Notes: a model not told the origin generated them from the sequence alone. A DNA stretch of 64,000 nt from Phycisphaerales bacterium (GCA_015487555.1 WFPK01000052.1:44144-108143); one strand, 5' to 3'; positions 34,190 to 51,372 are shown, numbered from the stretch's first letter. Program-made: numbers and translations.

Positions 34190-36484
<2,295 letters not shown>

Positions 36485-36504
36485 TATCACCGATAGATCG
36501 GGCA

Positions 36505-37062: not shown

Positions 37063-37089
37063 TTCTGTCGACGGTTGAGTAGGGAAAAA

Positions 37090-38133: not shown

Positions 38134-38206
38134 GGGCATATAGCTCAGTTGGTAGAGCACGGCATTGAAAATGCCGGTGTCCGTGGTTCAAGTCCGCGTA
38201 TGCCCA
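38134..38206 (+). tRNA. tRNA-Phe (GAA)
   Basis: GGGCATATAGCTCAGTTGGTAGAGCACGGCATTGAAAATGCCGGTGTCCGTGGTTCAAGTCCGCGTATGCCCA. The acceptor stem is GGGCATA/TATGCCC, the anticodon stem-loop is CGGCA-TTGAAAA-TGCCG, and the T-loop is GGTTCAAGTCC. Confidence 0.9.
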
Positions 38207-39497
38207 TTGATTGGTTCTGCAAAGAACCGCAAAGACCAGAAGGGATCAGCATAAGTGCTGGTTCCTTTTTAGTTTGCGCTCCGTTTTGATCTTCTTTGCC
38301 GGTTGTTGCGGATTGCTGCTGCGCTGCCATTTGCGCCCCAAGTGCGCCGCATTCTGCGCCGCTTTTTTCAGTCTGCTTCATCGCTATCGGTGTTGATGCA
38401 GCACGCTCATAATCCTCATCACGAACCATGTGGTAGTGAGCCTCAGCGATCGCCTGGGAGTGCCCCATCCATGCTGTGCATTGAGCCGACGGATATACGG
38501 CCGCCAACTCGGTCGCCCTGCTTGCCCGCATGTTATTGAACAAATTAGGCCATGCGTTCAAGCCAGCCCGCTCGATGAGCCGCCGCATGTGCGTGCCCAG
38601 ATTCGACCCCAAGTCCCGATACCGCCCCACGACGAACTCAGCACCATCGGGGGCACACTCATATGCCTGCATCAACACCTCTCGAAGCTCAGGAAACAAC
38701 GGCACCATTCGCTCTGCCTTGCCCTGATGATGCTCGGTCTTTGGCGATCGAACCCTAAATCGGTTGTTTGCCCAGTCAATATCCGCCCAGCGAACCCCCA
38801 ACACTTCCGATGGGCAACGCAACCCACCAAATCGAGCCAGTGCCACAATGCACCGCCAGTCAGCATCCGGGCATGCCTCCATGACCTTGAAGATGGCCTC
38901 TGGAGTGATAAAGAATGCCTTTTCCCTGTTTGTTTTTCGCCCGGCTTTCACATCTTCAAACGGATTGCTCGGGATCATCCCCCACTTCACTGCTTTCTTG
39001 AAGAACATCCGCGCCCCGCGAATATCGCGTCCGATTGTGGCCTCGGCGTATTTCTTCCCACACAACCATGCCCGCCATTTGTCACCTTCGAGTGAAGTAA
39101 TCGAATCGAGTTGGCGTGAATCGCCAAAGTATGCAATGAGCCGCCGTTGAGTTTGGGCATATCGGATGCGAGTTGATTCCTTCACGCTTACCGTGGCGAA
39201 ATACTCATCAAGCATCCCACCAAGCGTGCGGGTCTTGGCCGCCTCTCTTGGCTCTGCAAGACCTGCCAATACCAGCTTGGCGTAGGTGTCGTCTGGAAGG
39301 TCTGCAAGCCATTCGGCGGTCTGTGGGTTGATCGGTGTGTTGAGTCTGACCGAATCAATCAGCGATTCCACCCGAACCTTGAACGCCTCGGCTGCCTTGA
39401 CATTGATCTTGCCGAGCCGAATCGTGCGCCGATTACCTTTGGAAATCATGAACTGGATGCGTTTGGAGCCGTCTTTGTCGCGAATGAGTGATGCCAT
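38145..39497 (-). CDS. int: Tyrosine site-specific integrase (integrated-state reading frame ends inside tRNA-Phe)
   Basis: 450 aa. It has an N-terminal arm/SAM-like region and a catalytic domain with ...GLRCPSEV..., ...NMRASRATELA..., ...WMGHSQAIAEAHYHMV (catalytic Tyr). The last 14 codons (EPRTPAFSMPCSTN) are antisense of the tRNA body. Confidence 0.9.
   Translation of the reverse strand: MASLIRDKDGSKRIQFMISKGNRRTIRLGKINVKAAEAFKVRVESLIDSVRLNTPINPQTAEWLADLPDDTYAKLVLAGLAEPREAAKTRTLGGMLDEYFATVSVKESTRIRYAQTQRRLIAYFGDSRQLDSITSLEGDKWRAWLCGKKYAEATIGRDIRGARMFFKKAVKWGMIPSNPFEDVKAGRKTNREKAFFITPEAIFKVMEACPDADWRCIVALARFGGLRCPSEVLGVRWADIDWANNRFRVRSPKTEHHQGKAERMVPLFPELREVLMQAYECAPDGAEFVVGRYRDLGSNLGTHMRRLIERAGLNAWPNLFNNMRASRATELAAVYPSAQCTAWMGHSQAIAEAHYHMVRDEDYERAASTPIAMKQTEKSGAECGALGAQMAAQQQSATTGKEDQNGAQTKKEPALMLIPSGLCGSLQNQSMGIRGLEPRTPAFSMPCSTN
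38191..38208 (+). repeat. attL core (3' end of tRNA-Phe)
   Basis: AGTCCGCGTATGCCCATT, identical to 47923..47940. Confidence 0.8.
38340..38360 (+). repeat. 21-bp repeat copy 1 (inside the element, 131 bp from the attL core)
   Basis: AAGTGCGCCGCATTCTGCGCC, identical to 47853..47873. Confidence 0.9.
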
Positions 39498-41602
39498 TAT
39501 TTTCTACCTTCCTGATCCGAGTCTACCGGATTCGTATCGCCGATGCGAGGTTCATTGTTCAGATTGGGGCCGCGAAGATCCACCGGGGGTATCCTGTTCA
39601 GTTGCTCTGAATCACATACACCGCCATTGTCCGCCACATCTCCCTCTATGGCAAAGTTGGCGGGCTTTGGTTCATCTTGGCGGTCTATGGTGGGCATTGC
39701 CCACATCCAGCGACCACTACTTGAGAATCCCTCGCGGATTGCTGTTGCCTTGATTCGCTTCTTGGCACGCTCGATCGTGCGCCATGCAAGCCCGTCCTGC
39801 TCGCCCATTCTCCTGATGTCACTTGATGCCATCGGGCCGTCACTGAGCACATCGCGGAGCCATTTCCCGGCTTCATCACCCGCGCTGCTCCCACCGGTGC
39901 TGTTAGCCAGCACCTCGGATGCTGTGATACTCACTGAATCGGCTTCCCACTGGACCCGAGCAGGATCATCGCCGATCGTGAATGCCAAACCCGGCGAGGG
40001 GATGGACAGGTTCATCTTGCCGGGGAGTAAAAACCGCCGATCTTCATCATCGGGATCACGCATCAAATGGAGCACCGATCGGGCAAGCCCAGTGAATGCC
40101 CTTGAGCCGAGCACCATGTCATCTGGGTTCGCCGCTGCGCCCTTGCGTTGGTGGGCTACCAGCACCACCGCTGCGCCTGTTTCTTGGGCGAGGGCAGCCA
40201 GTGGAGCCAACACCGCACGCACTTCATTGTCCCGATGTGCATCTACGCGCCCGCCCATATATGAGCCGATCGGATCAATCACGATCAGCCGCACATCGCC
40301 GATAGTTCTGAGGGCTTGGTGGAGTGGATCAATATCGGCCAGAGTGAATGCGCCCTCAAGCATGTTGCCATGCTTGCCCTGTGCGTGAACACCCTTGAGC
40401 ATATGAATCTGCTCAGAATCAGCATTATGGGCATCGAGCCGAGGGCGGATGGTGTCTCCTGGATCGTCCTCAGCCGAAACCAGTAGCACGCTCCCCGCTT
40501 CGCACGATGCTCCATCGGGCCAGTCCTGCCCGGTGCTCACTCTCGCTGCCCAATCGAGCGTAGCGAACGATTTGCCCTCGCCGGGTCGGCCAACCAGTAG
40601 GCTCAATCGACCCAAGGGCAGCCGTCCAGCCCAAAGCCAACTCACCTTCTGCGCTTGCACATCGGCCATACGCAAGAGCACCGGGCTGCCACATTGGGGA
40701 GCGGATTGCAACTTCTTGGGCGCACACGCCTTTGCGAGTGCCTCAACTGCTTCACGCACCGCGCCCGTGTCACCTTGGGTAAGTTCCAGCACATCGGCCA
40801 TGTCTCCGCCCTTGGGCAACTCAGGCCAACGCTCGATCAAATGCACGATCTTCACCGATGCTGCGCCCGCTTCGCGTGCAAGCTGATGCACACCATCGGC
40901 ATATTTCTCACCTGGCTCATCGTGATCGGGAAGGATCACCACTTCGCGCCCGGCCAATGGTGTCCAGTCCGCATTGCCTGCGCTCTTGCTCCCATGTGGG
41001 CTTGTGGTGGCGATCAGCCCGCACGCTCGGGCCGCGTCCGCAGCCTTCTCGCCCTCACACACATACACCACGCCCTCGGCTTTGAGCAACTCAGCAAGCC
41101 CATACAAGGGCCTCGGTTCAGGCATCCCGCCGATGAACCAACCCGCACCGTTTCGGGACACCGGGCGCATCTTCTTGCCAGATTCAGTATCCCACCGCAC
41201 CATCACCCCCACCGGTTCACCTTGAGCATCGTGGTATGTCCATGCCTTCGATCTTGGGCCGTGTTTGCGCTCCAACGCCTCAACCGCTTGGTGAGCCGTG
41301 GAGTATGTGACTTTTTGGGGCCTCGGGTGTCTGGTGTGGGGTGTTGGATGCTCTTCTGGGAACAAATTACGCATCTCCAATCCAATCGCCTCAATCACTG
41401 ATTCGGTGGTGCAACCAGCATGGCACTTGAGCAATGCCCGTCCATCATCGCCGGGGGTGATGCTCAGGCTCGGGTTCCGATCATCATGGGCCGGGCATCG
41501 ACACATCCAGCCAGTGCCAGATTGTTTGGGTTCGTGTCCAATGACTCTGAGCGCATCGAGCACACGCTGGATGGGATTCGAGGTATTCGTGTTGATGCTC
41601 AT
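39497..41602 (-). CDS. Bifunctional DNA primase / replicative helicase-like ATPase (zinc-binding + Toprim + RecA-like AAA_25)
   Basis: CRCPAHDDRNPSLSI...LKCHAGC zinc motif. Toprim VYVCEGEKAADA...ILPDHDEPG. Walker A GRPGEGKS and Walker B VLLVSAEDD. There is a 1-nt overlap with the int start. Confidence 0.85.
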   Translation of the reverse strand: MSINTNTSNPIQRVLDALRVIGHEPKQSGTGWMCRCPAHDDRNPSLSITPGDDGRALLKCHAGCTTESVIEAIGLEMRNLFPEEHPTPHTRHPRPQKVTYSTAHQAVEALERKHGPRSKAWTYHDAQGEPVGVMVRWDTESGKKMRPVSRNGAGWFIGGMPEPRPLYGLAELLKAEGVVYVCEGEKAADAARACGLIATTSPHGSKSAGNADWTPLAGREVVILPDHDEPGEKYADGVHQLAREAGAASVKIVHLIERWPELPKGGDMADVLELTQGDTGAVREAVEALAKACAPKKLQSAPQCGSPVLLRMADVQAQKVSWLWAGRLPLGRLSLLVGRPGEGKSFATLDWAARVSTGQDWPDGASCEAGSVLLVSAEDDPGDTIRPRLDAHNADSEQIHMLKGVHAQGKHGNMLEGAFTLADIDPLHQALRTIGDVRLIVIDPIGSYMGGRVDAHRDNEVRAVLAPLAALAQETGAAVVLVAHQRKGAAANPDDMVLGSRAFTGLARSVLHLMRDPDDEDRRFLLPGKMNLSIPSPGLAFTIGDDPARVQWEADSVSITASEVLANSTGGSSAGDEAGKWLRDVLSDGPMASSDIRRMGEQDGLAWRTIERAKKRIKATAIREGFSSSGRWMWAMPTIDRQDEPKPANFAIEGDVADNGGVCDSEQLNRIPPVDLRGPNLNNEPRIGDTNPVDSDQEGRK

Positions 41603-42006
41603 GCCTCACCCCCTACATGCTGCCCGACGGCGACCCACACAGCTGCGGGGCATCCGCGTTGGGTGAGCCGTCGATTCCCTGTATCTCGGATCAAACCCAG
41701 CTTCGCAAGCTCTCCGCGACGGGCGGAATAACTTGCAGCGAATATGTCGAGTTGAGTTTCGCCCTCATCGTCAGTGAGTCCATGCGCCCCACTTGCCAAG
41801 ATCGCTCGATAGATTCGTGCCCGTTGGGTGGGCGTGCGGGCCGCGATCATCATGGCTGCCACTTCCGAGGTGCCTTTGGGCGCATTGTGTCGGAATGGTG
41901 GGCGCAGGTCTTGGGCCGAGGGTGTATGCTTAGCATGTTGTGAGTTTTCGGCATCGCCACCAATGGCAGGTGTGGGCGTGCCATTTCCAAATAGATCATT
42001 TTGCAT
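41599..42006 (-). CDS. Hypothetical protein, possible winged-helix DNA-binding protein
   Basis: The start is trimmed to MQNDLFG. The C-terminal part RIYRAILASGAHGLTDDE...ARRGELAKLGLIRDTG resembles a wHTH. It overlaps its neighbours within the operon. Confidence 0.4.
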   Translation of the reverse strand: MQNDLFGNGTPTPAIGGDAENSQHAKHTPSAQDLRPPFRHNAPKGTSEVAAMMIAARTPTQRARIYRAILASGAHGLTDDEGETQLDIFAASYSARRGELAKLGLIRDTGNRRLTQRGCPAAVWVAVGQHVGGEA

Positions 42007-42226
42007 CGGTCTGCCCTCCCTTGCGGGCAATGAACGCCTCCAACTCGGCAACTGGGATCAGCACGATTCGATCGAGCTTGAATGATCCGATCTGCCCGGA
42101 TTTGAGCAGTGTGTGCAATGTTCGCTCAGACACGCCAAGGGCATTGGCGGCTTCCCGCTTGCGGAGGGTGAGCCGAAGATCGGATGGGGGATTGGGGGTC
42201 GGTGCGGGTGGTTGCCAGTTATTCAC
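41996..42226 (-). CDS. Helix-turn-helix (excisionase/AlpA-like, HTH_17) protein
   Basis: LTLRKREAANALGVSERTLHTLLKSGQIGSFKLDRIVLIPVAELEAFI. Confidence 0.7.
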   Translation of the reverse strand: MNNWQPPAPTPNPPSDLRLTLRKREAANALGVSERTLHTLLKSGQIGSFKLDRIVLIPVAELEAFIARKGGQTDAK

Positions 42227-42468: not shown

Positions 42469-43806
42469 TCAGTTCTTCGGTTTGCTTACGGCCCCTTCGC
42501 TTTCCTTCGCCCGTTTGATAGCCGTTTTGTATTCAGGATACCTTTCATAGACTTCAATGATGGAATGATGCCAGCGGTCGGACACCTTCAAACTTCTCTT
42601 CAATCGTCCATCATTCGCGGCAACTCGTAATAAGTCTGCGTATAAGCCTCCATCAGTCGCTGAAGAAAACCATGCGGCATTTCTTCTCTCGACCGCAGAC
42701 GATGAAAATAGCCTTTCCGAACCAGAAGTAGCCTTTTTTTGTTCTTCTACTGTCCCGTCAATATACAATGCCAACCCCACAATCAACTCCTCGATAGGCC
42801 GATAGGCCTCGGAAATCGCTTTTTGTGGATATACAGAATGCCCCTCTCTATCGCAGCGGAGTGCCCCTCTTTTGAGCAAATGGTCACCAGGCAGCTCGTT
42901 TTTCATTCCCATCAATGGGGGAGGAAATATATTGAGGGCGAGCGTGTTCATACCATCCATTGCTGCCCGTATGCGATCTTGTAGCTCTGGGCGGTGTATT
43001 TGAAATGTTGCGTCTCTCGCCCTTCGAAGAGCTGGCTCCCATGTCGCCCACCATTTTCGATTGTCCTCAAGCAACTCTATTTTCTTTGCCTTCAAATCTT
43101 CGCCATGTTCATGCTGAATCACATCAGCCCATTCAGACGCATTGCCTTGGAATACGCGAATATGCCGTTGCACATCACGCATCGCTCTACTCAGCTCGTC
43201 ATACGGGTTGATTCCCGGCTCATCGCACGGCTGCCCATCACCAGTTGGAATCGTCATTCCCACTGGCATCACTTCCCCCGTCCGAGCACTCCATGTTGCT
43301 CGCTCAAGCAGATCCAACACCTCGCCGGGAGGGCTATCGACGCTGTTGTGTTCACTGTTTTCCCAACAAATCATGCCACGCCCAAGTAATCCGGGGACTT
43401 CCTCACCGAACTGCCAAGGCAACGCTGCAAACGGACACATTGATTTTGAAATATATTCATTGGCATTGGGATCAATCGCCAGCACAAGGGTGAGCACAAC
43501 CATGCTCGCAGCGAGTTTTCGCTCCTCGTGCGGCATAGGCTCCTCGAATCGCATGTCAGAATACCCATTTGGGTACTCATCAGAGACTACGGCAACCTTG
43601 GCGCGGTCTAGCCGAGGAAAGATCAACTCTTCCGATGATTTTTCGGCCCATTTGCCATCATGGTCATCTTGTTTCAGATGATTCTCAGAGAAGATTTCTG
43701 TGAGCCGTTTCCCTGCTTCGGTAAAGACCTCACGATTGGCCTCGATCACTTTTCGAGTTGCACGAAGTAAGCCCTCTCGCCGGGCTGGGGTTGCATTTGA
43801 TGCCAT
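42469..43806 (-). CDS. Orphan 445-aa cytoplasmic protein, no recognisable family (island cargo)
   Basis: Long uninterrupted ORF, AT-richer than its surroundings. The start is trimmed to MASNATPARREG, with GGAAGGTGA 5-8 nt upstream of the ATG at 43806. No TM or signal sequence, and no motif that I recognise. Confidence 0.6.
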   Translation of the reverse strand: MASNATPARREGLLRATRKVIEANREVFTEAGKRLTEIFSENHLKQDDHDGKWAEKSSEELIFPRLDRAKVAVVSDEYPNGYSDMRFEEPMPHEERKLAASMVVLTLVLAIDPNANEYISKSMCPFAALPWQFGEEVPGLLGRGMICWENSEHNSVDSPPGEVLDLLERATWSARTGEVMPVGMTIPTGDGQPCDEPGINPYDELSRAMRDVQRHIRVFQGNASEWADVIQHEHGEDLKAKKIELLEDNRKWWATWEPALRRARDATFQIHRPELQDRIRAAMDGMNTLALNIFPPPLMGMKNELPGDHLLKRGALRCDREGHSVYPQKAISEAYRPIEELIVGLALYIDGTVEEQKKATSGSERLFSSSAVERRNAAWFSSATDGGLYADLLRVAANDGRLKRSLKVSDRWHHSIIEVYERYPEYKTAIKRAKESEGAVSKPKN

Positions 43807-44143
43807 CTTGTTCACCTTCCTCGGGCCGAGCGAGCGCGGCTGGGTCGGAAGGTGAATGACCCCGCCGCGTTCGCTCATCGTCGGAGCAACCCGACAAACC
43901 CGTATTTGATGTAGATCATACCACACCGAACAAAGATGCGACAAAGCGGGCCCTCCATGATTTCGCAAAGACCCCCAAAATCATCATTTTCCCTGTTTTT
44001 TCCCTGTTTACCCAACAATCCATAGGAAACACTGGGAGCAGTACGCGCGCGTGCGCGAGGGGATGCCTCAAATCTACCCGCCTATGAATATCTCCCACCT
44101 GAAGAATGGACAAATCCGTCCAGATACACGATGATCTAGACAC

Positions 44144-47100
44144 ATGGATACACCCACATTTATCGCCAAATGGTCAAAGGCCCAGCTCTCCGAGCGGGCC
44201 GCCTCGCAAGAACATTTTATCGACCTCTGCCGCCTCCTCGGCGTGAAGACACCCGCCGAACTCGATCCCACGGGCGATACCTTTACATTCGAGAAGGGAG
44301 CGAAGGTCTCAGGGCCCGCCTCGATCGGCTCGAAGGGGGCCCACGGGTGGGCGGATGTGTGGTACAAAGGGCGGTTCGCTTGGGAATACAAACGCAAGGA
44401 CAAATACAAGAACTTGGCCGAGGCCTACCGCCAGCTCCAGCAATACCGCGAAGACCTGGGCAACCCGCCGCTGATGATCGTCAGCGACATCACCAACTAC
44501 GAAATCCATACCAACTTCACCGGCTACAAGCCCGAGGTCTTCACCTTCACCCTCGATCAACTCTCCGACCCCGGCACCCTCACCCTCCTCAAACGGGTCT
44601 TCACCGATCCCGAGTCCTTCAAGCCCACCGAGACCGTCGCCGCCATCACCGAGAAGATCGCCGCCAAGATCGGTACCATCGCCCAGCACCTCCGCGATCG
44701 CGGGCATGAGCCGCACGATGCCGCCCATTTTCTGATGAAGGTCATGTTCTGCCTCTTCGCTGAGGATGTGGAACTCCTCCCCAAGGGGCTCTTTGAGCGT
44801 GTCCTCATCAAATCCAAGGACGATCCAGCCCGGCTCAAGAAACAAATGGACGCGATCTTCGATGCTATGCGCACCGGCGGGGACTTCGGCGTAGACGAAA
44901 TCAGCTACTTCAATGGCGGGCTCTTCGACAACGCCGAATCCATCGAACTCACCACCGACGAAATCGAAATCCTCATCGACGCGGCCATCCAAGATTGGTC
45001 GGTCATCGAACCCTCGATCCTCGGCACCCTCTTTGAACGCTCGCTCGATCCCTCAAAGCGATCGCAGATCGGGGCGCACTACACATCCCGCGAAGACATC
45101 ATGCTCGTCATCGAGCCGGTCATTGTCCGCCCGCTTCGCAAGCAGTGGGAAGAGACCAAAGCGCAGATCGAAGACCAGCTCGAACGCCGACGCAAGGGGA
45201 AGACATCGGCCACCAAGAAAAAGGCCGATGCCGAAATCGCCAACCTGCTCGATGGGTTCCAAACCAAGCTCTCCTCCGTTCGCGTCCTCGATCCCGCCTG
45301 CGGCTCGGGCAACTTCCTCTATGTCGCCATCCAGCAACTCCTCTTCCTCGAAAAAGAAGTCATCCTCTACGCATCCCGTGAAGAACTCGGGGTCGGCGGG
45401 TTGCTCCCCCGCGTGCGCCCAACCCAACTCCTCGGCATCGAAATCAACCCCTACGCCTCCGAACTCGCCCAAGTCGCCATCTGGATCGGATACCTCCAAT
45501 GGATGCGAGACAACGGCTTCAACGCCCCCAGAGACCCCATCCTCGAACCCATCGACACCATCGAAAACCGAGACGCGATCCTGGCGTGGGCCGATGAGGA
45601 TGGCGAGCGGATCAGCGTGTGGCGTGAGGGTGCGAAGTGCTTGGGCCAAGCCAAATGGCCCGAGGCGGATTTCATTGTGGGGAATCCGCCGTTTTTGGGG
45701 TCTCGTAAAGCACGAATGGAACTTGGTGATGAGTATGTGGATGCATACCAATCAGCATTTTCCACGACTCCCGAAGGCGTAGATTTATGCTGCTATTGGT
45801 TTGAACTAGCTGGTGCGCAAGTAGTTCAGCATCCCACCTTGCGGGCGGGATTGTTGGCGACACAAGGAATCCGCGGTGGGTCAAGCAGATCAGTATTGCA
45901 ACGAATCGAATCTAGATCAACAATCTTCTTTGCTATATCTGACAGAGTTTGGGAACTGGATGGAGCAACAGTACACATCTCAGTCGTGGGCTTTACTTTA
46001 GATTCTGACGAGCAATATATTTTGGATTGCCTGCCTGTTGACGGCATCAACTCCGATCTCACAGAGGGCGTAAATCTTACTAAAGCGACCAAAAAACCAG
46101 AAAACGCATCCATTTCTTTTCAAGGTACTATCAACAGTGGATCATTTGATCTCTCATATACCGAAGCGTGTCGCATGCTAACTATCCCAAACCCTATCCA
46201 AGCAAATAACGCAGATGTACTCAGGCCTTGGTGCAATGGTCGTGATTTGACTAAAAGAACAAGGGGGCAATGGATTGTAGATTTTGGTGTTGATCGTGAT
46301 GAAAAAGAATGCGCTCAGTACGAAGAGCCATTTGATTATGTTGTGAATCATATAAAACCTCAACGAGACAAGCTGAAAGATGGAAAGCAAAAATACGCGC
46401 ATTCATCGAAATATCCATTTTGGCAAATGTGGAATCCTCGCCCAGAAATGCGAAAAACGCTGCCCGCCGATAGCCGCTATGTCGGCACGCCAAGAGTCAC
46501 AAAATATAGATTGTTCAAATGGATGGATTCAACTCATCTTCCTGACGCACAGATTATTGTCTTCGCCCGTTCTGACGATTATTTTTTCGGCACCCTCCAC
46601 AGCAGCATCCACGAACTCTGGGCACGCCGGCTTGGGTCACAACTCCGAGACGCTGAATCAGGTTTCCGCTACACACCCACTACTTGCTTCGAGACCTTCC
46701 CCCTCCCGTGGTCGCCGGGGCATGAGCCGGGCGAGGGTGAGCCTCAGCGTCCGCTCCACGATGCCATCGGCGAGGCCGCCGCAACCCTCAACGAACAGCG
46801 CGAGCGATGGCTCAACCCGCCCGAGTGGGTGCAACCGATCGCCGACCGGATTGATGCCGAGGATGATTTCGCCGATGTGCTCGCCGTCAGTGGCGAGGAG
46901 GCCCAACGCTTGATCCGCCAGAGCGCGATTGATGCCGCCTGCGCCAAAGACCCCAAACTCAAGAAACGCACCCTCACCAACCTCTACAACGAACGCCCGA
47001 CTTGGTTGAGACTCGCCCACAAAGCCCTCGACCAAGCCGTGATTGCCGCCTACGCCGCCGTTGATCCCGATGGCGATTGGGACACCGCTTGGGCTGAGGT

Positions 47101-47221
47101 CTTCGAGGAAACCGGAGCCGGTCAACCCTTGCCCGAGGGGCATGAGTTGATAGAACGCCGGGAAGAGGTGGAGCAGTTGATTTTGGGGAATCTGCTTCGG
47201 ATGAACCAAGCGCGGGCGTGA
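44144..47221 (+). CDS. MmeI-family Type IIL restriction-modification enzyme (fused endonuclease + N6-adenine methyltransferase + TRD)
   Basis: 1025 aa. The N-terminal nuclease motif is D71-X9-E81-X-K83 (ADVWYKGRFAWEYKRK, 44354..44392). SAM motif I is VLDPACGSGNFL, and motif IV is NPPF (45683..45694). The long C-terminal TRD and helical region are as in MmeI-like enzymes. Confidence 0.85.
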   Translation: MDTPTFIAKWSKAQLSERAASQEHFIDLCRLLGVKTPAELDPTGDTFTFEKGAKVSGPASIGSKGAHGWADVWYKGRFAWEYKRKDKYKNLAEAYRQLQQYREDLGNPPLMIVSDITNYEIHTNFTGYKPEVFTFTLDQLSDPGTLTLLKRVFTDPESFKPTETVAAITEKIAAKIGTIAQHLRDRGHEPHDAAHFLMKVMFCLFAEDVELLPKGLFERVLIKSKDDPARLKKQMDAIFDAMRTGGDFGVDEISYFNGGLFDNAESIELTTDEIEILIDAAIQDWSVIEPSILGTLFERSLDPSKRSQIGAHYTSREDIMLVIEPVIVRPLRKQWEETKAQIEDQLERRRKGKTSATKKKADAEIANLLDGFQTKLSSVRVLDPACGSGNFLYVAIQQLLFLEKEVILYASREELGVGGLLPRVRPTQLLGIEINPYASELAQVAIWIGYLQWMRDNGFNAPRDPILEPIDTIENRDAILAWADEDGERISVWREGAKCLGQAKWPEADFIVGNPPFLGSRKARMELGDEYVDAYQSAFSTTPEGVDLCCYWFELAGAQVVQHPTLRAGLLATQGIRGGSSRSVLQRIESRSTIFFAISDRVWELDGATVHISVVGFTLDSDEQYILDCLPVDGINSDLTEGVNLTKATKKPENASISFQGTINSGSFDLSYTEACRMLTIPNPIQANNADVLRPWCNGRDLTKRTRGQWIVDFGVDRDEKECAQYEEPFDYVVNHIKPQRDKLKDGKQKYAHSSKYPFWQMWNPRPEMRKTLPADSRYVGTPRVTKYRLFKWMDSTHLPDAQIIVFARSDDYFFGTLHSSIHELWARRLGSQLRDAESGFRYTPTTCFETFPLPWSPGHEPGEGEPQRPLHDAIGEAAATLNEQRERWLNPPEWVQPIADRIDAEDDFADVLAVSGEEAQRLIRQSAIDAACAKDPKLKKRTLTNLYNERPTWLRLAHKALDQAVIAAYAAVDPDGDWDTAWAEVFEETGAGQPLPEGHELIERREEVEQLILGNLLRMNQARA

Positions 47222-47307
47222 TCTGCCAGAAGCATTGATTCTTCGCCCCATTGAGGCCACGACACGCCGCTCGCGTGCGATGCGCGGGGTTTGCTAGAAA
47301 CGGGTAT

Positions 47308-47679
47308 TCAAAGTTCAGTAGCACATAAAGCGTGTTTTCGATCTGGATTGAGTTGCTCGATATGCCGCTGAAGTTTTTGTTTTTCTTCTTCAAGATGAGC
47401 GAAAACTTCGTCATTCAGATCATCGCTGTAAAGCAGCTCAAAGAACTCTTTGATTTCCCGTTTGGTCAGAAAAGCAACCCACCCCGCCCAATCTGTCTGA
47501 ACTGCATGAATCTTTCCTGATTCTCTCCATTGGTGAAAGAGCGTCCACGCATTGCGCCCATCACGAAAGAATGGACTTTTCCGCTTCGGAGTCTTGGTAG
47601 CCAGCCCATTTTCGTCGGGTTCAGAATCATCCATGTTTGAGATGTATACATCGAGATATGGCATTGTGATTGCTTCCAT
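47308..47679 (-). CDS. Orphan small protein (about 119-140 aa; start 47730/47679/47664 uncertain), island cargo
   Basis: AT-rich ORF ...MPYLDVYISNMDDSEPDENGL...WTLFHQWRESGKIHAVQTDWAGWVAFLTKREIKEFFELLYSD... No family was recognised. The upstream alternative TTG start overlaps the stop of the int-tail segment. Confidence 0.45.
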   Translation of the reverse strand: MEAITMPYLDVYISNMDDSEPDENGLATKTPKRKSPFFRDGRNAWTLFHQWRESGKIHAVQTDWAGWVAFLTKREIKEFFELLYSDDLNDEVFAHLEEEKQKLQRHIEQLNPDRKHALCATEL

Positions 47680-47726
47680 GAAAAGATAGGCCTTTGAATC
47701 GAATGGTTCTATCAATCCGTAGGTCC

Positions 47727-47939
47727 TCAATGTTCTCCACCGCTGATCAACTCCAGAATCTTCCCTCGCACATCTTCACAAAGCGTTGGCCAGACTCGGA
47801 GAACCTGATCGAGGTCGGGATCGGCTGAGCTGGATTGGGGCGAATCGCCAGAAAGTGCGCCGCATTCTGCGCCCCCACTCTCTGAAATCGGCGTTTCTAT
47901 ATGCGCCAGTGCGGTATGTTTGAGTCCGCGTATGCCCAT
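47727..47939 (-). other. Displaced 3' segment of the integrase reading frame (it would be fused in-frame to int across the att core in the excised circle)
   Basis: The minus strand reads MGIRGL-KHTALAHIETPISESGGAECGALSGDSPQSSSADPDLDQVLRVWPTLCEDVRGKILELISGGEH*. The MGIRGL codons are the att core, read in the same phase as in int (ATG at 38207 and 47939, both in phase with their ORFs). Confidence 0.5.
47853..47873 (+). repeat. 21-bp repeat copy 2 (inside the element, 49 bp from the attR core)
   Basis: AAGTGCGCCGCATTCTGCGCC, identical to 38340..38360 and in the same orientation. Confidence 0.9.
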
Positions 47940-47940
47940 T
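47923..47940 (+). repeat. attR core (displaced copy of the tRNA-Phe 3' end)
   Basis: AGTCCGCGTATGCCCATT. The flanking 5' bases (TGTTTG) only partly match the T-arm (GGTTCA). Confidence 0.8.
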
Positions 47941-47950
47941 CCCAATCAAG

Positions 47951-47982
47951 AAAAGCCTCGGGTCAAACCCGAGGCTTTTTTT
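47951..47982 (+). terminator. Rho-independent terminator, probably the original tRNA-Phe terminator now downstream of attR
   Basis: AAAAGCCTCGGG-tcaaa-CCCGAGGCTTTT, followed by a T-run. It starts 10 nt after the attR core. Confidence 0.7.
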
Positions 47983-48077
47983 CATCGACCACCTCAACCA
48001 ACTCCACAGACTCCATCGAAAAACACCCCAAGCCAAAGCCAGGGGTGCCATTGAGTGTGTAAAGCTTCGCACCTGCC

Positions 48078-49352
48078 CTATGGACAGCCGGCACTAAACG
48101 CCGCGAGGAACGCCGAGATATCGAAGAAGTTCCATGTGCCATTGTTATCAAAGTCCGCTCCCGGATCCTGAGCAGCGAACAAAGAAAGAAACTCCGAAAT
48201 ATCAAAGAAGTTCAGGGCCCCGTCACAGTTGATATCCGCAGGGCAACAATCGAAACCACTTGGCCCATAAAGCACATGCTCGAACGAAGCCATCGGGGTG
48301 TAGCTCAGGCCTTCACATGCGAATCCGCCGAACCAGAAGAGCCCAGCGTGGAGGGTCTCGCCGTCTGAACCACCGGGTAGTGGTGCGTAGATTGCGAATG
48401 CATCTTCCTGACCAGTTGCACCCGGTATCGCGGTATCGAGGTCCCAGGTCCAAGTGCCGTCGCCGTTGTCGATCGCAGTCCCCTCGCCAACACCAAAATT
48501 GATGCCGATTGTTTTGAATGAGTCCGCAAGATCACCATCGATCACACCATCACCATCATGATCGGCTGTTCCGGGCTGGAAAAACCGAACCGACCAACCC
48601 CAATCAAACAACCCATCCTGGTCGAAGTCTGTGTCGGGGAAGCCATCGAAATCATGGTCGCCAAGCCAATACCCAGGCGTATAAAACGCAGCCCCCTGAG
48701 AGTCGCTATCCGTATCCCCAAGCTCAAAGGTCATCGAACTTGAGAACGAACCAGCAAGGTCAATGTCTGCGCTGTAGCCTGCCAATGCGCCATCGTCGAA
48801 GGGTGTGCCGGGCAAATCAGTGAGCCGAAACGAAACCAATGGGAAGCGGTCGCAACGATCACTTCGTCCATTTTCCCCGTCCCAATAAGTCCACTCACCC
48901 GCAAGCCCAACAACCCCATCGCCGACGCCATCGGAATCAGAATCCGTATCAATGTGCCCGGTCACCCAGTTGATATGCACCATATCAACAACCGTATCCA
49001 CAGCCACATCGCCAAAGTCAAGAACAGTAATGCCAGTCGCCAACGAAGTTGTATCAGCGTTATTGTCAACCCCATAGAAAAACTCCGTGGTATACCCCGC
49101 ACCCGCGCACGGATTCGACACCAACGATGACCAGATCGGCCCACTCATCCCAGCAGCAGGTGCTACCTGCTCGTCACCGAGCACCGTCACCACCCGCTCG
49201 CCACTCATGATGTTGTAGTAAATATGAGCAACATCAACCACCTGACCATGCGTCGGCGATAAAGTCACCGGCGATTCCGCAGCCTCAGCAACACCGCCGA
49301 TACCACCGGCACAAAGACAAATCAAAAGAACGCCACTTCCTACACTTTTCAT
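48078..49352 (-). CDS. Secreted Asp-rich Ca-binding-like protein with a C-terminal GC-type dockerin-like domain (paralog 1)
   Basis: The start is trimmed to MKSVGSGVLLICLCAGG (GGGAG upstream), which is a signal peptide. It has DxDxDG-type stretches (DTDSDSDGVGDGV, DHDGDGVIDGD). The C-terminus has two repeats, INCDGALNFFDISEFL and DNNGTWNFFDISAFL, and ends in AGCP. Confidence 0.75.
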   Translation of the reverse strand: MKSVGSGVLLICLCAGGIGGVAEAAESPVTLSPTHGQVVDVAHIYYNIMSGERVVTVLGDEQVAPAAGMSGPIWSSLVSNPCAGAGYTTEFFYGVDNNADTTSLATGITVLDFGDVAVDTVVDMVHINWVTGHIDTDSDSDGVGDGVVGLAGEWTYWDGENGRSDRCDRFPLVSFRLTDLPGTPFDDGALAGYSADIDLAGSFSSSMTFELGDTDSDSQGAAFYTPGYWLGDHDFDGFPDTDFDQDGLFDWGWSVRFFQPGTADHDGDGVIDGDLADSFKTIGINFGVGEGTAIDNGDGTWTWDLDTAIPGATGQEDAFAIYAPLPGGSDGETLHAGLFWFGGFACEGLSYTPMASFEHVLYGPSGFDCCPADINCDGALNFFDISEFLSLFAAQDPGADFDNNGTWNFFDISAFLAAFSAGCP

Positions 49353-49584
49353 TTCATAGCTCCCATTTCCACTGCATTTCCCAAGCAATCCCCAAAAAAC
49401 AGATCGCCGATAACCCGAGCAGGCCGTTGCCCCCTATCCGCACCGCTGAGAAAGCAGTTGCATCAATCTGTTCGATATCAATATATTCATCCTGCACAAC
49501 ATCGCCAATCTCTCACGCATATTCATAGAAAAACACCCGAAAAGGCTCGGGTGTTGAAGGATGATCGTGGAACAATGCCCACAC

Positions 49585-50895
49585 TCATGGGCAGCCTGTA
49601 TTGAACGCCGAGAGGAATGCGGAAATGTCAAAGAAGTTCAACTTGCCATCACCTGTAAAGTCCGCCTGCAAATCCCCAGCTGCAAACAACTCGAGGAACT
49701 TCGAAATATCAAAGAAATTCAACTCGCCATCACAGTTGATATCCACCGGGCAACAGCCGCTCCCGCCGCCAGGCCCAACAAGCTGAGCCCGGAACTGCCC
49801 CAGTGGCGTAAACCCCTCGGAGGTGCATGACAGGATTCCAAAGAGCATTCCCGCGTGCAAGCCATCAAAGTACAGCGCAACCCCCTCCTCCGCACCGTAC
49901 CCGTAATCCCCTGGAGCAGGTATTGGCATCTCCCAAGTCCACGATCCATTTCCTTGCTCAACCCAAACCCCCGCAGGACGAGCAAAGCTGACTCCAATTG
50001 GCTTTTGCGAATCCGCAAAGTCGCCATCAATCACCCCATCACCATCGAGATCGGCCGTACCCGGCTGATAGAACCGCACCGACCAACCCCAGTCAAACAA
50101 CCCATCGCCATCAAGATCCGAATCGGGCAATCCGTCAAAATCACGATCGGCATTGGCAATCGAAACCCCATCGCCAATCCCATCACCATCGGTATCCACA
50201 TCATTGTGGAAATAAGTCGCAGTCGAGACGCCATCGGAATCGCCAATCTCAAAGGTCAGCGAATCCTCGGGCAGAATACTCCTGAGGTCAATGTCGGCTG
50301 TATACCCGGCGAAGAACCCATCTCCGAAAATATTTCCCGGAAGGTTCGCAAACAGAACTGAAATCAAAGGCAGCCGTGTCGAGACATTGATCGCCCGGCC
50401 ATTGTCCGCATCCCAATAAGTCCACTGCCCACCAAGCCCGACAACACCATCGCCGATCCCGTCCGAATCTTCATCTGTGTCATTGTGCCCGGTGATCCAC
50501 TCAATATGAACCATGTCAACCACGCTATCAAGGGCGATATCACCAAAGTCAAGAACCTCAAAACCGGTCATCCCCCCCGGCGAGTTATCGTCCACAACAA
50601 AGAACGGACTCCCACCATCGCTCACCGCAGGGCACGGATCATCCGACATCACCGACCAGATCGGCCCGCTCGACCAGTCTGCCCCCGCAGGGTCGGCCTG
50701 GTCGGGCAAAGAATCGTCCCCTGCCAGTGTAATCACCCGCTCACCGCTGGCCACATGATAATAGATATGCGCGACCTGAACAACCTGCCCACGCGCAACC
50801 GGAAGCTGGCTCGGCGAATCCTCGCCACGAGCAACTCCACAAACAACACCTGCTGAAAGGACCAAAATCAAAGCACTGCTACTTGCGTTTTTCAT
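49585..50895 (-). CDS. Secreted Asp-rich protein with a GC-type dockerin-like C-terminus (paralog 2)
   Basis: 436 aa, collinear with paralog 1 (for example VVDMVHIEWITGHNDTDEDSDGIGDGVVGLGGQWTYWD versus VVDMVHINWVTGHIDTDSDSDGVGDGVVGLAGEWTYWD). It ends ...INCDGELNFFDISKFL...GDGKLNFFDISAFLSAFNTGCP. Confidence 0.75.
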   Translation of the reverse strand: MKNASSSALILVLSAGVVCGVARGEDSPSQLPVARGQVVQVAHIYYHVASGERVITLAGDDSLPDQADPAGADWSSGPIWSVMSDDPCPAVSDGGSPFFVVDDNSPGGMTGFEVLDFGDIALDSVVDMVHIEWITGHNDTDEDSDGIGDGVVGLGGQWTYWDADNGRAINVSTRLPLISVLFANLPGNIFGDGFFAGYTADIDLRSILPEDSLTFEIGDSDGVSTATYFHNDVDTDGDGIGDGVSIANADRDFDGLPDSDLDGDGLFDWGWSVRFYQPGTADLDGDGVIDGDFADSQKPIGVSFARPAGVWVEQGNGSWTWEMPIPAPGDYGYGAEEGVALYFDGLHAGMLFGILSCTSEGFTPLGQFRAQLVGPGGGSGCCPVDINCDGELNFFDISKFLELFAAGDLQADFTGDGKLNFFDISAFLSAFNTGCP

Positions 50896-50925
50896 CGCAT
50901 TTCTCCTTATCCAAAAACCAAACGA

Positions 50926-51249
50926 CTACGGGCAACCCGCACTAAACTCGGCCAAGAACGCCGAGATATCGAAAAAGCCAAAAGTGCCGCTGTGATCAAA
51001 ATCCGCCCGCGGATCACCAGCGTCAAACAACACCAAAAACGCTGAAATATCAAAGAAGCCCAACACCCCATCACCCCTCAGCGTCTCCACCCGCTCGACC
51101 GTCACGATATTGAAAGAGATATGCGCCGCATCAACCACCCGCCCCCGGCTCGCTTCAAGCGCCACCAAAGGCTCATCACCCGCAAGCAAACTCCCCGCAC
51201 CGCCCGCACACAGACACACACCCAAAATCGCATTCCCTGCACTCTTCAT
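50926..51249 (-). CDS. Internally deleted paralog: signal peptide plus about 45 N-terminal residues fused to the dockerin-like C-terminus (107 aa)
   Basis: MKSAGNAILGVCLCAGG...RGRVVDAAHISFNIVTVERVETLRGDGVLGFFDISAFLVLFDAGDPRADFDHSGTFGFFDISAFLAEFSAGCP. The junction GD|GVLGFFDIS corresponds to LGDEQ... and CDGALNFFDIS in paralog 1. Confidence 0.6.
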   Translation of the reverse strand: MKSAGNAILGVCLCAGGAGSLLAGDEPLVALEASRGRVVDAAHISFNIVTVERVETLRGDGVLGFFDISAFLVLFDAGDPRADFDHSGTFGFFDISAFLAEFSAGCP

Positions 51250-51250
51250 T

Positions 51251-51306: not shown

Positions 51307-51372
51307 CTCACCGCCAACACTCGGCCAGACACCAACAACATCCGCATCCTACACCAAACAGTTTCGCATGTA

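What the first reader, a model, noticed from the sequence alone, without database searches (positions are those of the whole stretch)
42469..47730. AT-richer cargo block of the tRNA-Phe element: an MmeI-like RM enzyme flanked by two orphan proteins (candidate undescribed defence module)
The right-hand 5.3 kb of the element holds three genes that are not needed for integration or replication. These are a 445-aa orphan (42469..43806, minus), a divergently transcribed 1025-aa MmeI-like Type IIL enzyme (44144..47221, plus), and a roughly 120-140-aa orphan (47308..47730, minus). The two orphans and the middle of the RM gene are visibly AT-richer than the rest of the 64-kb window, which suggests recent foreign origin. 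Small int + AlpA + primase-helicase elements (P4-like satellites, PICI-like islands) are known hotspots for anti-phage systems. A Type IIL enzyme is self-sufficient, so the two orphans are unexplained. They could be independent defence or anti-defence genes, or accessory partners of the RM enzyme. I recognise no motif in either orphan.
Basis: partly seen in the sequence, partly recalled or inferred. Interest (0 to 1): 0.8.

Follow-up and report, generated by a model that had tools for sequence, protein, structure and literature searches.

The report
Restriction gene cargo on mini-island
The three genes are real and AT-rich but are not one defence module: a complete stand-alone MmeI-type restriction enzyme rides as cargo on a 9.75-kb tRNA-Phe island, the large "orphan" is a conserved DNA-binding backbone protein of that island family, and the small "orphan" is a separate accessory gene from an uncharacterised family.

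Summary
Observation confirmed. The island runs from tRNA-Phe (38134-38206) to a 21/23 repeat of its 3' end at 47918-47940. The three genes exist. Orphan 1 (GC 0.50), orphan 2 (0.45) and the middle of the RM gene (0.44) are lower in GC than any same-size stretch outside the island.

Interpretation partly supported.
- **RM gene.** It is a full-length MmeI-family Type IIL enzyme with intact nuclease and methylase motifs. Its AT-rich middle is the target-recognition region. That region is only 20-58% identical between sister islands, whose enzymes are otherwise 84-100% identical.
- **Orphan 1.** It is not cargo. In 13 related islands its homolog is the first gene of the orphan1-xis-replication-integrase run. 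This holds in five distant islands with no MmeI gene (three or four with no RM gene; one carries Type I RM). It has a conserved all-alpha N-domain and an interchangeable C-terminal HTH tail. A conserved structured leader RNA precedes it. No fold or family match was found.
- **Orphan 2.** The gene is 118 aa (47308-47664) and occurs in no sister island. It sits in a hypervariable slot. It belongs to an unannotated family (78 clusters) with a confident alpha/beta model that has no PDB match. Its three known contexts all lie beside RM or defence-type genes.

Verdict: a known kind of island with uncharacterised parts.

The parts
38134..38208 (+). tRNA-Phe (GAA) and left attachment core (38186-38208)
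   Evidence: ARAGORN; Rfam tRNA, 69 bits; direct repeat D4
38145..39497 (-). Tyrosine integrase; its 3' end runs into the tRNA
   Evidence: Pfam Phage_integrase and SAM_5; 55-88% identical integrases end every related island
39497..41602 (-). Primase-helicase (CHC2 Zn finger / Toprim / AAA_25)
   Evidence: Pfam AAA_25 3.8e-39; phrog_239 2.5e-42
41599..42051 (-). 150-aa backbone protein of unknown function
   Evidence: phrog_1123 1.7e-5; homologs in L001, L006, L008, L009, L011
42223..42462 (-). Xis/AlpA-like HTH protein (79 aa)
   Evidence: HTH_17 0.0035, below cut-off; PHROG RDF/excisionase 5e-5; homologs in sister islands carry PF12728
42469..43806 (-). Orphan 1 (445 aa). Backbone protein with a conserved all-alpha N-domain (aa 1-~195), a helical middle (aa ~200-350), a disordered linker and an interchangeable C-terminal tail (aa ~385-445)
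   Evidence: Alignments A1 and A4; synteny; AF2 pLDDT 74.9; no Pfam/NCBIfam/PHROG/PADLOC/PDB match
43807..43944 (-). Orphan 1 promoter (TTGTCG-18-TG-TATGAT, 43944-43915) and ~100-nt structured leader (helices span 43902-43822). The apical loop CACCUUCC (~43858-43846) is complementary to the SD GGAAGGUG
   Evidence: Promoter scan; conserved DNA read in different frames; RNAalifold gives 30 pairs, 7 with compensatory changes; 93.7% of cells paired versus 29-41% in slid controls; MFE -51.7, z -3.5; no Rfam hit; covariance model R1 hits one copy per close island
44039..44059 (-). GC-rich palindromic motif CTCGCGCACGCGCGCGTACTG in the divergent intergenic region
   Evidence: 0 expected by chance; found at the equivalent place upstream of orphan 1 in 9 other islands, including distant ones with no MmeI gene
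44107..44135 (+). Promoter-like site for the RM gene. It would give a leaderless or near-leaderless mRNA
   Evidence: Consensus scan; this stretch is nearly invariant among islands. Inference only
44144..47221 (+). MmeI-family Type IIL (IIG) restriction-modification enzyme, 1025 aa
   Evidence: PADLOC REase_MTase_IIG 1.4e-255, full length; Pfam MmeI_hel, MmeI_Mtase and MmeI_TRD above cut-off; PDB 5HR4 MmeI 1.2e-44 with D71..E81-Y-K83, DPACGSGNFL and NPPF aligned to the MmeI catalytic motifs
45644..46693 (+). Low-GC, highly divergent segment of the RM gene (aa ~501-850: end of the MTase domain plus the target recognition domain)
   Evidence: Per-50-aa identity to sister enzymes is 20-86% here (20-58% across aa 551-800) versus 84-100% elsewhere. 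TRD GC is 0.42-0.45 versus 0.54-0.62 in the rest, in all islands
47308..47664 (-). Orphan 2 (118 aa). Small acidic alpha/beta protein in the hypervariable slot
   Evidence: 78 representative clusters at E<=1e-3, all ~115-130 aa; AF2 pLDDT 90.4, pTM 0.83; no PDB match; weak BFVD matches to jumbo-phage unknowns; absent from all sister islands
47727..47945 (-). Conserved small ORF (~72 codons) spanning the right attachment core
   Evidence: Protein-level conservation in L009, L004, L003 and twice in L001
47853..47873 (+). Exact 21-nt direct repeat of 38340-38360. The two copies flank the core in the excised form (candidate integrase arm sites)
   Evidence: Repeat family D5. The function is inferred
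47918..47940 (+). Right attachment core (21/23 copy of the tRNA-Phe 3' end)
   Evidence: Repeat family D4

Best explanation
The 5.3-kb block is the cargo-and-boundary end of a ~9.75-kb tRNA-Phe integrative island. The island belongs to a small family found in marine Phycisphaerae-like (planctomycete) genomes. The block holds three functionally separate things.

1. **RM gene.** A complete single-polypeptide MmeI-family Type IIL enzyme is the defence cargo. It should methylate and cut at a site set by its target-recognition domain. That domain is an AT-rich segment that differs between otherwise near-identical sister enzymes, so each island confers a different specificity.

2. **Orphan 1.** It works for the island, not for the enzyme. 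It is the first gene of the one-strand run orphan1 -> xis -> p150 -> primase-helicase -> integrase. It has a conserved all-alpha N-domain, and a flexible linker ties this to a C-terminal DNA-binding tail that is swapped between relatives. It is made from an mRNA with a conserved structured leader whose apical loop can pair with the ribosome-binding site. Its most likely role is an island-specific DNA-binding control or maintenance protein for the excision-replication programme. This role is inferred.

3. **Orphan 2.** It is an independent accessory gene in the hypervariable slot between the RM gene's 3' end and the right attachment arm. It belongs to an uncharacterised family of ~120-aa acidic alpha/beta proteins. 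It most likely acts on its own by binding a protein or DNA in a defence or counter-defence setting. This is inferred and weak.
For: **Island limits and backbone.**

**RM gene.**
- PADLOC gives a full-length match at 1.4e-255.
- The alignment to MmeI (5HR4) keeps D..EXK, motif I and NPPF. Their roles are given in PMC4833311.
- MmeI is known to be a one-protein RM system (PMC2582602, listed).
- The TRD mosaic is shown.

**Orphan 1.**
- Thirteen other distinct islands all place its homolog directly upstream of, and co-oriented with, xis/rep/int. Replication modules differ between them (AAA_25; 292 aa + IstB-like; 259 aa; DUF3987). Targets differ (tRNA-Phe, Ile, Val). Cargo differs: MmeI in 7; Type I RM + DrmD-like in 1; a membrane protein in 1; a 142-aa unknown in 1; no obvious cargo in 3; one contig too short to tell.
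- There are at least five C-terminal tail types, which can differ between relatives with similar N-domains. One tail type hits HTH_24 at 5.7e-6, above the cut-off.
- There is no orphan 1 homolog in plasmids, although 226 plasmid records carry MmeI-like genes.
- The leader is supported.

**Orphan 2.**
- It is absent from all sister islands.
- The same slot is empty in L001. It holds PDC-S21/DUF4917 in L003 and a Y-family polymerase in L004 and L009.
- Family size and start point. Confident model.
- Neighbours are MmeI (window), hsdM (L019) and a Schlafen/AlbA_2 protein (L020).
Against: - The related loci were found through orphan 1 homology. Its presence in all of them is therefore circular. 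Only its fixed position relative to xis/rep/int and its independence from MmeI are real tests.
- Within the close subgroup (orphan 1 at least 48% identical), MmeI is present in 7 of the 8 islands that can be judged. A subgroup-specific functional tie cannot be excluded.
- No biochemical role can be assigned to the orphan 1 N-domain. The AF2 model rests on 12 sequences (pLDDT 74.9, pTM 0.51). The window's own tail type has no Pfam HTH match.
- The loop-SD pairing shows no covariation, because both sides are invariant.
- Orphan 2's defence link rests on three contexts only. It has no match to PADLOC, Pfam, NCBIfam or PHROGs.
- No excision, replication or restriction activity has been shown.
Confidence: 0.7

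Rival explanations
1. One reading: orphan 1, the MmeI-like enzyme and orphan 2 form one undescribed three-gene defence module. In it the orphans act as accessory partners of the RM enzyme.
For: The three genes are adjacent and AT-richer than their surroundings. Orphan 1 and the RM gene share a conserved divergent promoter region in 7 islands.
Against: Orphan 2 is absent from all six other MmeI-bearing sister islands. Orphan 1 persists in islands without MmeI: L002, L014, L015, L016, L017 and L018. MmeI-family enzymes work as single proteins (PMC2582602, PMC4833311). They occur in 226 plasmid records with no orphan 1 homolog anywhere in that collection.
Confidence: 0.04
2. Orphan 1 is a boundary regulator of the cargo. 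Through its C-terminal DNA-binding tail it controls the divergent cargo promoter. It would act as a large analogue of RM controller (C) proteins, delaying restriction after the island enters a new host.
For: Orphan 1 sits at the backbone-cargo junction. In 7 islands its promoter lies back-to-back with that of the RM gene in a highly conserved intergenic region. The tail is HTH-like in several relatives.
Against: Three or four distant islands keep orphan 1 with no RM or other recognisable defence gene upstream (L015, L017, L018, and L002 with only a 142-aa unknown). Tail types differ between islands whose intergenic regions and RM 5' ends are nearly identical. The conserved palindrome is also present in islands with no MmeI gene. 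Orphan 1 is about five times the size of C proteins and shows no similarity to them.
Confidence: 0.12
3. Orphan 2 is an anti-restriction or restriction-alleviation type inhibitor. It would be a small acidic protein that binds an RM or defence enzyme. It would help the island, or its host DNA, survive restriction during establishment.
For: It is small and acidic: net charge -6 here, family median -7, pI about 4.8. It lies beside RM or defence-type genes in all 3 known contexts. Its structural neighbours are small proteins of unknown function from jumbo phages, with Bacillus phage G gp31 best at E 9e-4 and TM 0.53. After excision it would lie downstream of int and the small ORF on the same strand.
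Against: Its charge is far less extreme than that of classical DNA mimics (my knowledge of Ocr and ArdA). It has no match to any known anti-restriction family. The family is absent from phage, plasmid and viral-contig collections. The DMP12 fold match is not significant.
Confidence: 0.2
4. Orphan 2 is a stand-alone single-gene anti-phage defence protein that was picked up in the island's cargo hotspot.
For: The same slot holds a PADLOC candidate defence gene (PDC-S21) in L003. Cargo regions of small int-alpA-primase islands are known defence hotspots (PMC10803314). Family contexts lie beside RM or defence-type genes.
Against: It has no enzymatic or membrane features. Only 2 of 50 family members match any PADLOC candidate, and weakly. 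The slot also holds non-defence cargo, namely Y-family polymerases.
Confidence: 0.15

Closest known systems
MmeI family Type IIL restriction-modification enzymes (MmeI, PDB 5HR4; NmeAIII, etc.)
   Same: One polypeptide carries an N-terminal PD-(D/E)XK nuclease (D71..E81-x-K83 aligned to MmeI D70..E80-M-K82). It also has the helical spacer, the gamma-class N6-adenine methylase (DPACGSGNFL, NPPF), the TRD and the C-terminal helices. As described for this family, specificity varies through the TRD (PMC2731914, PMC4833311).
   Different: It is only distantly related in sequence to MmeI itself (E 1.2e-44 over aa 47-858) and 42-45% identical to plasmid homologs. Here a near-identical scaffold (84-100%) carries sharply different low-GC TRD segments across sister islands. 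The recognition site and cleavage geometry are unknown.
PICMIs (phage-inducible chromosomal minimalist islands) and P4-like/PICI satellites with defence hotspots
   Same: These are small islands of about 6-14 kb with an integrase, an AlpA/Xis-type HTH and a primase. A few genes are of unknown function. A variable locus holds Type I/II RM and other defence systems (PMC10803314). The distant relatives here (L002, L015-L018) even use a DUF3987 primase, as the PICMI model requires.
   Different: These islands integrate into tRNA genes (Phe, Ile, Val), not next to fis. The host is a planctomycete lineage, not Vibrionaceae. The window's primase-helicase is of the AAA_25 type. There is no psu/delta/sid or capsid-remodelling gene. 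Orphan 1 and its leader have no counterpart in the described satellites. No helper phage, induction or packaging is known, so satellite status is untested.
Master regulators of mobile islands (for example SaPI Stl and phage CI-type repressors). This is a functional analogy for orphan 1 only
   Same: Like orphan 1, these are helical, island-encoded DNA-binding proteins that diverge fast and set island-specific control (my knowledge of the SaPI literature).
   Different: The domain order is the opposite: orphan 1 has a conserved N-domain and a variable C-terminal HTH. It is co-directional with the operon it heads rather than divergent from it. There is no sequence or fold similarity. This analogy is a lead, not a test.

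Membership tests
MmeI family (Type IIL / IIG RM) | N-terminal PD-(D/E)XK nuclease with the D...E-x-K catalytic triad | tested here: met
   D71, E81 and K83 align to MmeI D70, E80 and K82. The residues are defined in PMC4833311.
MmeI family (Type IIL / IIG RM) | Helical spacer plus gamma-class N6A methylase with motif I (DPACGxGxFL) and motif IV (NPPF) | tested here: met
   Pfam MmeI_hel 2.2e-14 and MmeI_Mtase 2.3e-29. DPACGSGNFL and GNPPF are aligned.
MmeI family (Type IIL / IIG RM) | MmeI-type target recognition domain and C-terminal helical bundle | tested here: met
   MmeI_TRD scores 30.3 bits against a cut-off of 27. MmeI_C scores 17.1 bits, below the cut-off. The PADLOC IIG profile is matched over positions 3-1025.
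MmeI family (Type IIL / IIG RM) | Cuts about 20/18 nt from an asymmetric site; protects the host by methylating one strand | not testable with these tools
   This needs enzyme assays and methylome sequencing.
PICMI / small int-alpA-primase phage satellites | Co-localised integrase, AlpA-type HTH (PF05930/PF12728) and primase (DUF3987/DUF5906) | tested here: inconclusive
   The integrase is met. The HTH_17 match is only E 0.0035 in the window, but PF12728 is on record for homologs. The window's primase is AAA_25/Toprim, not DUF3987. Distant relatives have DUF3987.
PICMI / small int-alpA-primase phage satellites | Integration next to fis | tested here: not met
   Integration is into the tRNA-Phe 3' end. 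Relatives use tRNA-Ile or tRNA-Val.
PICMI / small int-alpA-primase phage satellites | Helper-phage-dependent induction and packaging | not testable with these tools
   No relative was found in IMG/VR viral contigs.
P4-like satellites | psu, delta and sid capsid-size/late genes | tested here: not met
   No such Pfam or PHROG match for any island gene.
Known or candidate defence proteins (PADLOC-DB v2) | Profile match for orphan 1 or orphan 2 | tested here: not met
   Orphan 1 has only a spurious ZorA hit at E 0.034. Orphan 2 has none. Two of 50 family members match PDC-S11 weakly.
RM controller (C) proteins | An ~80-aa Xre-type HTH encoded just upstream of, and co-transcribed with, the R gene | tested here: not met
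   Orphan 1 is 445 aa, divergent from the RM gene, and has no HTH_3/Xre match.

The most novel reading that the evidence does not exclude
Orphan 2 founds an undescribed family (about 78 clusters at 50% identity) of ~120-aa acidic alpha/beta proteins whose fold is absent from the PDB. On this reading the family acts as stand-alone defence or counter-defence (anti-restriction-type) factors that travel next to RM and other defence genes. In parallel, orphan 1 with its leader RNA would be the hallmark control module of a new lineage of planctomycete mini-satellites.
Probability: 0.2. Interest if true: 0.6.

Novelty: new variant of a known kind. Interest (0 to 1): 0.38.

Why it matters
- **Annotation.** The work corrects a tempting mis-annotation. 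Adjacency and AT-richness alone suggested a three-gene defence module. Comparison with sister islands separates backbone, cargo and hitch-hiking accessory.
- **Mobile elements.** It defines a family of very small tRNA-integrating islands in planctomycete-type marine bacteria, a phylum whose mobile elements are, to my knowledge, little described. The family has a conserved backbone protein of unknown fold with interchangeable DNA-binding tails, and a candidate cis-regulatory leader RNA that is not in Rfam.
- **Enzyme engineering.** The sister enzymes are a natural series of one MmeI-type scaffold carrying different recognition domains. Such a series is useful for specificity engineering and methylome work.
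- **Orphan 2.** It gives a confident new small fold to test for defence or anti-defence activity.

Tried and rejected
- **Family libraries, single sequences.** Pfam, NCBIfam, PHROGs and PADLOC gave nothing for either orphan.
- **Family libraries, 50 orphan 2 family members.** Nothing again. The single PDC-S11 hit reached only 2 of 50 members and was rejected as not a family relationship.
- **PDB sequence profiles.** None for orphan 1. For orphan 2, only chance-level hits.
- **Foldseek, orphan 1.** The best PDB match had E 0.28 and was a generic helical repeat.
- **Foldseek, orphan 2.** The best PDB match had E 0.09. The BFVD library gave weak matches to jumbo-phage proteins of unknown function, which do not inform on function.
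- **Public collections.** tblastn of both orphans, and of an orphan 2 family consensus, against 50,697 phage and 72,556 plasmid records found no match. Scans of viral contigs for both families found none. One scan failed because no stretch was conserved enough.
- **N-terminal extension of orphan 1.** The 38-aa extension seen in database calls was rejected as coding because the reading frame is inconsistent between loci.
- **Leader RNA.** Rfam search of the island found only the tRNA. Covariance model R1 found no copy of the leader in the distant subgroup.
- **Orphan 2 as a DNA mimic.** Its charge of -6 is only moderate, and the DMP12 fold match is not significant.
- **Orphan 1 as replication initiator.** This is unlikely. 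The islands carry their own, varied replication modules.
- **Limits.** Context look-ups were exhausted, so a proper neighbourhood survey of the orphan 2 family could not be run.

Full report
**1. Observation**

ORF listing confirms three genes:
- a 445-aa ORF on the minus strand (42469..43806 from the ATG; the open frame extends to 43968);
- a 1025-aa ORF on the plus strand (44144..47221);
- a minus-strand ORF at 47308..47730.

tRNA-Phe lies at 38134-38206. Its last 23 nt (38186-38208) recur at 47918-47940 with 21/23 identity. This bounds a ~9.75-kb island.

Gene order on the minus strand, read 5' to 3', is orphan 1, Xis/AlpA-like HTH, a 150-aa protein, primase-helicase (AAA_25/Toprim/CHC2), tyrosine integrase, tRNA. 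The RM gene is divergent from orphan 1. Orphan 2 is convergent with the RM gene.

GC content is 0.504 for orphan 1, 0.448 for orphan 2 and 0.436 for 46000-46499. The value outside the island is 0.571. No same-size stretch outside the island is as low as any of the three. The observation therefore stands.

Two corrections apply:
- Orphan 2 most likely starts at 47664 and is 118 aa.
- The N-terminal extension of orphan 1 seen in database gene calls is non-coding.

**2. The RM gene**

- PADLOC's Type IIG profile is matched end to end (1.4e-255).
- Pfam finds MmeI_hel, MmeI_Mtase and MmeI_TRD above their cut-offs.
- The only solved relative is MmeI itself (5HR4, 1.2e-44).
- In that alignment the nuclease triad (D71, E81, K83 against MmeI D70, E80, K82), motif I (DPACGSGNFL) and motif IV (NPPF) are all kept. 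Their roles are given in PMC4833311.
- MmeI is a one-protein RM system (PMC2582602, listed).

The enzyme therefore needs no partner on present knowledge.

The AT-rich middle is explained by comparison with sister islands. Residues 1-500 and 851-1025 are 84-100% identical to four of the five sister enzymes (74-96% for L011). Residues ~501-850 (the end of the methylase plus the TRD) are far more divergent, only 20-58% identical across aa 551-800. This segment has GC 0.42-0.45 in every island, against 0.54-0.62 for the rest of the gene. The pattern is recognition-domain exchange on a conserved scaffold. It is a known way of diversifying specificity in this family and in other methylases (PMC2731914 and PMC3983042).

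**3. Orphan 1**

*Homologs.* A search of 5.8 billion proteins gave 12 homologs. A profile search gave 20. None has a Pfam domain on record.

*Contexts.* Contexts were read for 13 other distinct islands: L001, L002, L003, L004, L006, L008, L009, L011, L014, L015, L016, L017 and L018.
- In all of them the homolog is co-oriented with, and directly upstream of, a small HTH_17/Xis gene.
- Wherever the contig reaches that far and the island is intact, the Xis gene is followed by a replication module and an integrase that abuts a tRNA gene (Phe, Ile or Val). In L003 only the xis remnant follows.
- The replication module is replaced several times: AAA_25 primase-helicase, a 292-aa protein plus an IstB-like ATPase, a 259-aa protein, or a DUF3987 primase.
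- The cargo upstream of orphan 1 also varies:
  - an MmeI-like gene in 7 islands including the window;
  - Type I RM plus a DrmD-like SNF2 helicase in L016;
  - a 517-aa membrane protein in L014;
  - a 142-aa unknown in L002;
  - nothing obvious in L015, L017 and L018;
  - L008 is too short to judge.

*What this shows.* Orphan 1 is tied to the backbone and is independent of MmeI. The reverse test agrees. MmeI-like genes at 42-45% identity occur in 226 plasmid records, yet the whole plasmid collection has no orphan 1 homolog.

*Caveat.* The loci were retrieved through orphan 1 itself, so only its position and its independence from MmeI count as evidence. Within the close subgroup MmeI is present in 7 of the 8 islands that can be judged.

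*Architecture*.
- The N-domain of ~195 aa is conserved. Invariant residues include R18, E41, R65, D112 and W148, and the domain ends with the IPTGDGxPC motif.
- A helical middle of ~150 aa is missing from short forms that still sit in intact islands (L004, L014).
- A linker follows, then a ~60-aa C-terminal tail.
- At least five unrelated tail types exist, and they can differ between relatives with similar N-domains (for example P0012/P0016 versus P0015).
- One tail type matches winged-helix HTH_24 above the cut-off (5.7e-6). Another weakly matches KfrA_N. The window's own type has no match.

*Structure.* The AF2 model is all-alpha with three long helices at 201-293 and a disordered linker at 352-385 (pLDDT 74.9, pTM 0.51). 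Foldseek against the PDB finds nothing (best E 0.28). PDB sequence profiles find nothing either. There is no catalytic-looking motif.

*Composition.* Orphan 1 homologs are lower in GC than their integrase in most islands. The AT-richness is a trait of the gene family.

**4. Leader and intergenic region**

- About 130 nt upstream of the orphan 1 ATG are 83% identical on average across nine islands whose orphan 1 proteins are only ~50% identical.
- Indels put this DNA in different frames in different loci, so it is not coding.
- It contains an extended -10 promoter, TTGTCG-18-TG-TATGAT (43944-43915).
- Downstream lies a ~100-nt leader. RNAalifold folds it into three helices with 30 pairs, and 7 pairs show compensatory changes.
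- 93.7% of cells are paired, against 29-41% when the partners are slid by 1-3 columns. Seven pairs covary, against 0-2 in the slid controls.
- The window's leader has MFE -51.7 kcal/mol and z -3.5.
- The apical loop of the long hairpin is CACCUUCC. It is complementary to the invariant SD GGAAGG(UG) that lies 8 nt before the ATG.
- This suggests a loop-SD interaction that limits translation of the first gene of the excision-replication operon. This is inference: both sides are invariant, so covariation cannot test it.
- Rfam has no such family.
- A covariance model finds exactly one copy per close-subgroup island and none in the distant subgroup.
- A GC-rich palindromic motif (window 44039-44059) is conserved upstream of orphan 1 even in the distant islands that lack MmeI. 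In L004 it also recurs just past the RM stop codon.
- The RM gene's promoter-like site (44107-44135) would give a leaderless or near-leaderless mRNA.

**5. Orphan 2**

- The word-index search found only the protein itself.
- An exhaustive phmmer search of 1.84 billion representatives found 78 clusters at E<=1e-3. Nearly all are 115-130 aa and start at the MPYLDVY methionine.
- None of 50 members matches Pfam, NCBIfam or PHROGs. Two match a PADLOC candidate weakly.
- The AF2 model built from this alignment is confident (pLDDT 90.4, pTM 0.83). It is a small alpha/beta fold.
- It has no significant PDB neighbour (best E 0.09).
- In the viral structure library the best matches are small unknowns from jumbo phages. 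Bacillus phage G gp31 is best, with E 9e-4 and TM 0.53.
- The family is acidic: median net charge -7 and pI 4.8.
- It is absent from phage, plasmid and viral-contig collections.
- No sister island encodes a member.

*The slot.* Orphan 2 lies between the RM 3' end and a conserved right-end arm, and this slot is hypervariable:
- empty in L001;
- PDC-S21/DUF4917 (8.5e-82) in L003;
- a Y-family polymerase in L004 and L009.

*Other contexts.* Only two other family contexts could be read. The 42%-identical homolog is divergent from an hsdM gene (HsdM_N 3.4e-17). The 45%-identical homolog lies just upstream of a Schlafen/AlbA_2 protein on a chromosome.

With the window, that makes three of three contexts beside an RM or defence-type gene, with no constant partner or orientation. 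This is suggestive, but the sample is too small to carry weight.

**6. Mechanism and comparison**

*What is shown:*
- the island limits;
- a complete MmeI-type gene with all catalytic motifs;
- the TRD mosaic;
- fixed synteny of orphan 1 with the backbone, and its independence from MmeI;
- tail swapping in orphan 1;
- a conserved, covarying leader structure;
- the singleton status of orphan 2 and its family.

*What is inferred:*
- that orphan 1 is a DNA-binding control or maintenance protein of the island;
- that the leader gates its translation;
- that orphan 2 acts alone in a defence or counter-defence role.

The closest described systems are the MmeI family for the enzyme, and small int-alpA-primase islands such as PICMIs and P4-like satellites for the island. 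The variable loci of those islands carry Type I/II RM and other defence systems (PMC10803314).

The island fails one PICMI criterion, integration next to fis. Its dependence on a helper phage is untested. I therefore describe it as working like such islands and do not file it as a member.

**7. Verdict**

The finding is real but mostly ordinary in kind: a defence-cargo island. Its uncharacterised parts are the orphan 1 family, its leader RNA and the orphan 2 family. The proposed three-gene module is not supported. Interest is moderate, about 0.38.

Noticed in passing
window 43807-43944 (-): Conserved promoter plus a ~100-nt structured leader RNA upstream of orphan 1. It has three helices, 7 covarying pairs and an apical loop complementary to the SD. 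There is no Rfam family. One copy occurs per close-subgroup island.
   Followed up: yes
window 44039-44059; L004 6640-6660 and 9840-9860; L009 ~5085-5110 and 9725-9745: A GC-rich palindromic motif (CTCGCGCACGCGCGCGTACTG) is conserved upstream of orphan 1, even in distant islands that lack MmeI. In L004, and more loosely in L009, a second copy lies beyond the cargo, so the motif brackets the cargo cassette. It may be an operator or a recombination/boundary site.
   Followed up: partly
window 47727-47945 (-): A small ORF of ~72 codons spans the right attachment core. It is conserved at the protein level (…SGGAECGAL…DPxLxELIRxWPTLSxW…) in L009, L004 and L003, and twice in L001. After excision, int -> attP -> this ORF -> orphan 2 would lie on one strand.
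   Followed up: partly
window 38340-38360 and 47853-47873: An exact 21-nt direct repeat lies just inside both island ends. The copies would flank the core in attP, so they are candidate integrase arm-type sites. The repeat also encodes the GAECGAL peptide in both the integrase tail and the small ORF.
   Followed up: partly
window 45644-46693 (+): The target-recognition segment of the RM gene is a low-GC mosaic. It is only 20-58% identical across aa 551-800 between sister enzymes that are otherwise 84-100% identical.
   Followed up: yes
L004 5204-5263: A 20-aa remnant that is 95% identical to the MmeI-like C-terminus lies beyond the Y-family polymerase gene. This points to past cassette insertion or recombination at the RM 3' end.
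   Followed up: no
L001 782-988, 6400-6564 and 783-6700: L001 has two copies of the right-end small ORF. Between them lies a 5.5-kb block of metabolic genes (SDR, amine oxidase, DUF1365, cyclopropane-fatty-acid synthase). This looks like a composite or tandem island.
   Followed up: partly
L016 438-9720: A distant sister island carries Type I RM (HsdS, HsdR), a DrmD-like SNF2 helicase (9e-199) and a 427-aa unknown in the cargo position upstream of its orphan 1 homolog.
   Followed up: partly
L004 5299-6489; L009 5247-6545: Y-family (IMS/DinB-like) DNA polymerase genes occupy the slot that holds orphan 2 in the window.
   Followed up: no
database proteins P0001, P0002, P0006, P0007, P0009: Public gene calls for orphan 1 homologs start 38-46 codons too early, inside the promoter and leader. 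These are probably mis-annotated starts.
   Followed up: yes
window 47951-47982: A strong hairpin followed by a T-run lies immediately outside the right attachment core. It is probably the original tRNA-Phe terminator, displaced by the integration.
   Followed up: no
window 48078-49388, 49585-50895, 50926-51276 (-): Two paralogous 436-aa proteins and a truncated third all end in a GC-type dockerin domain (NF041540, 1.1e-10). A similar gene flanks the island in L009. This fits a Phycisphaerae-type host.
   Followed up: no
window 28000-38000 and 48000-54000: GC skew is strongly negative (-0.2 to -0.5) across the host parts of the window and much weaker inside the island.
   Followed up: no
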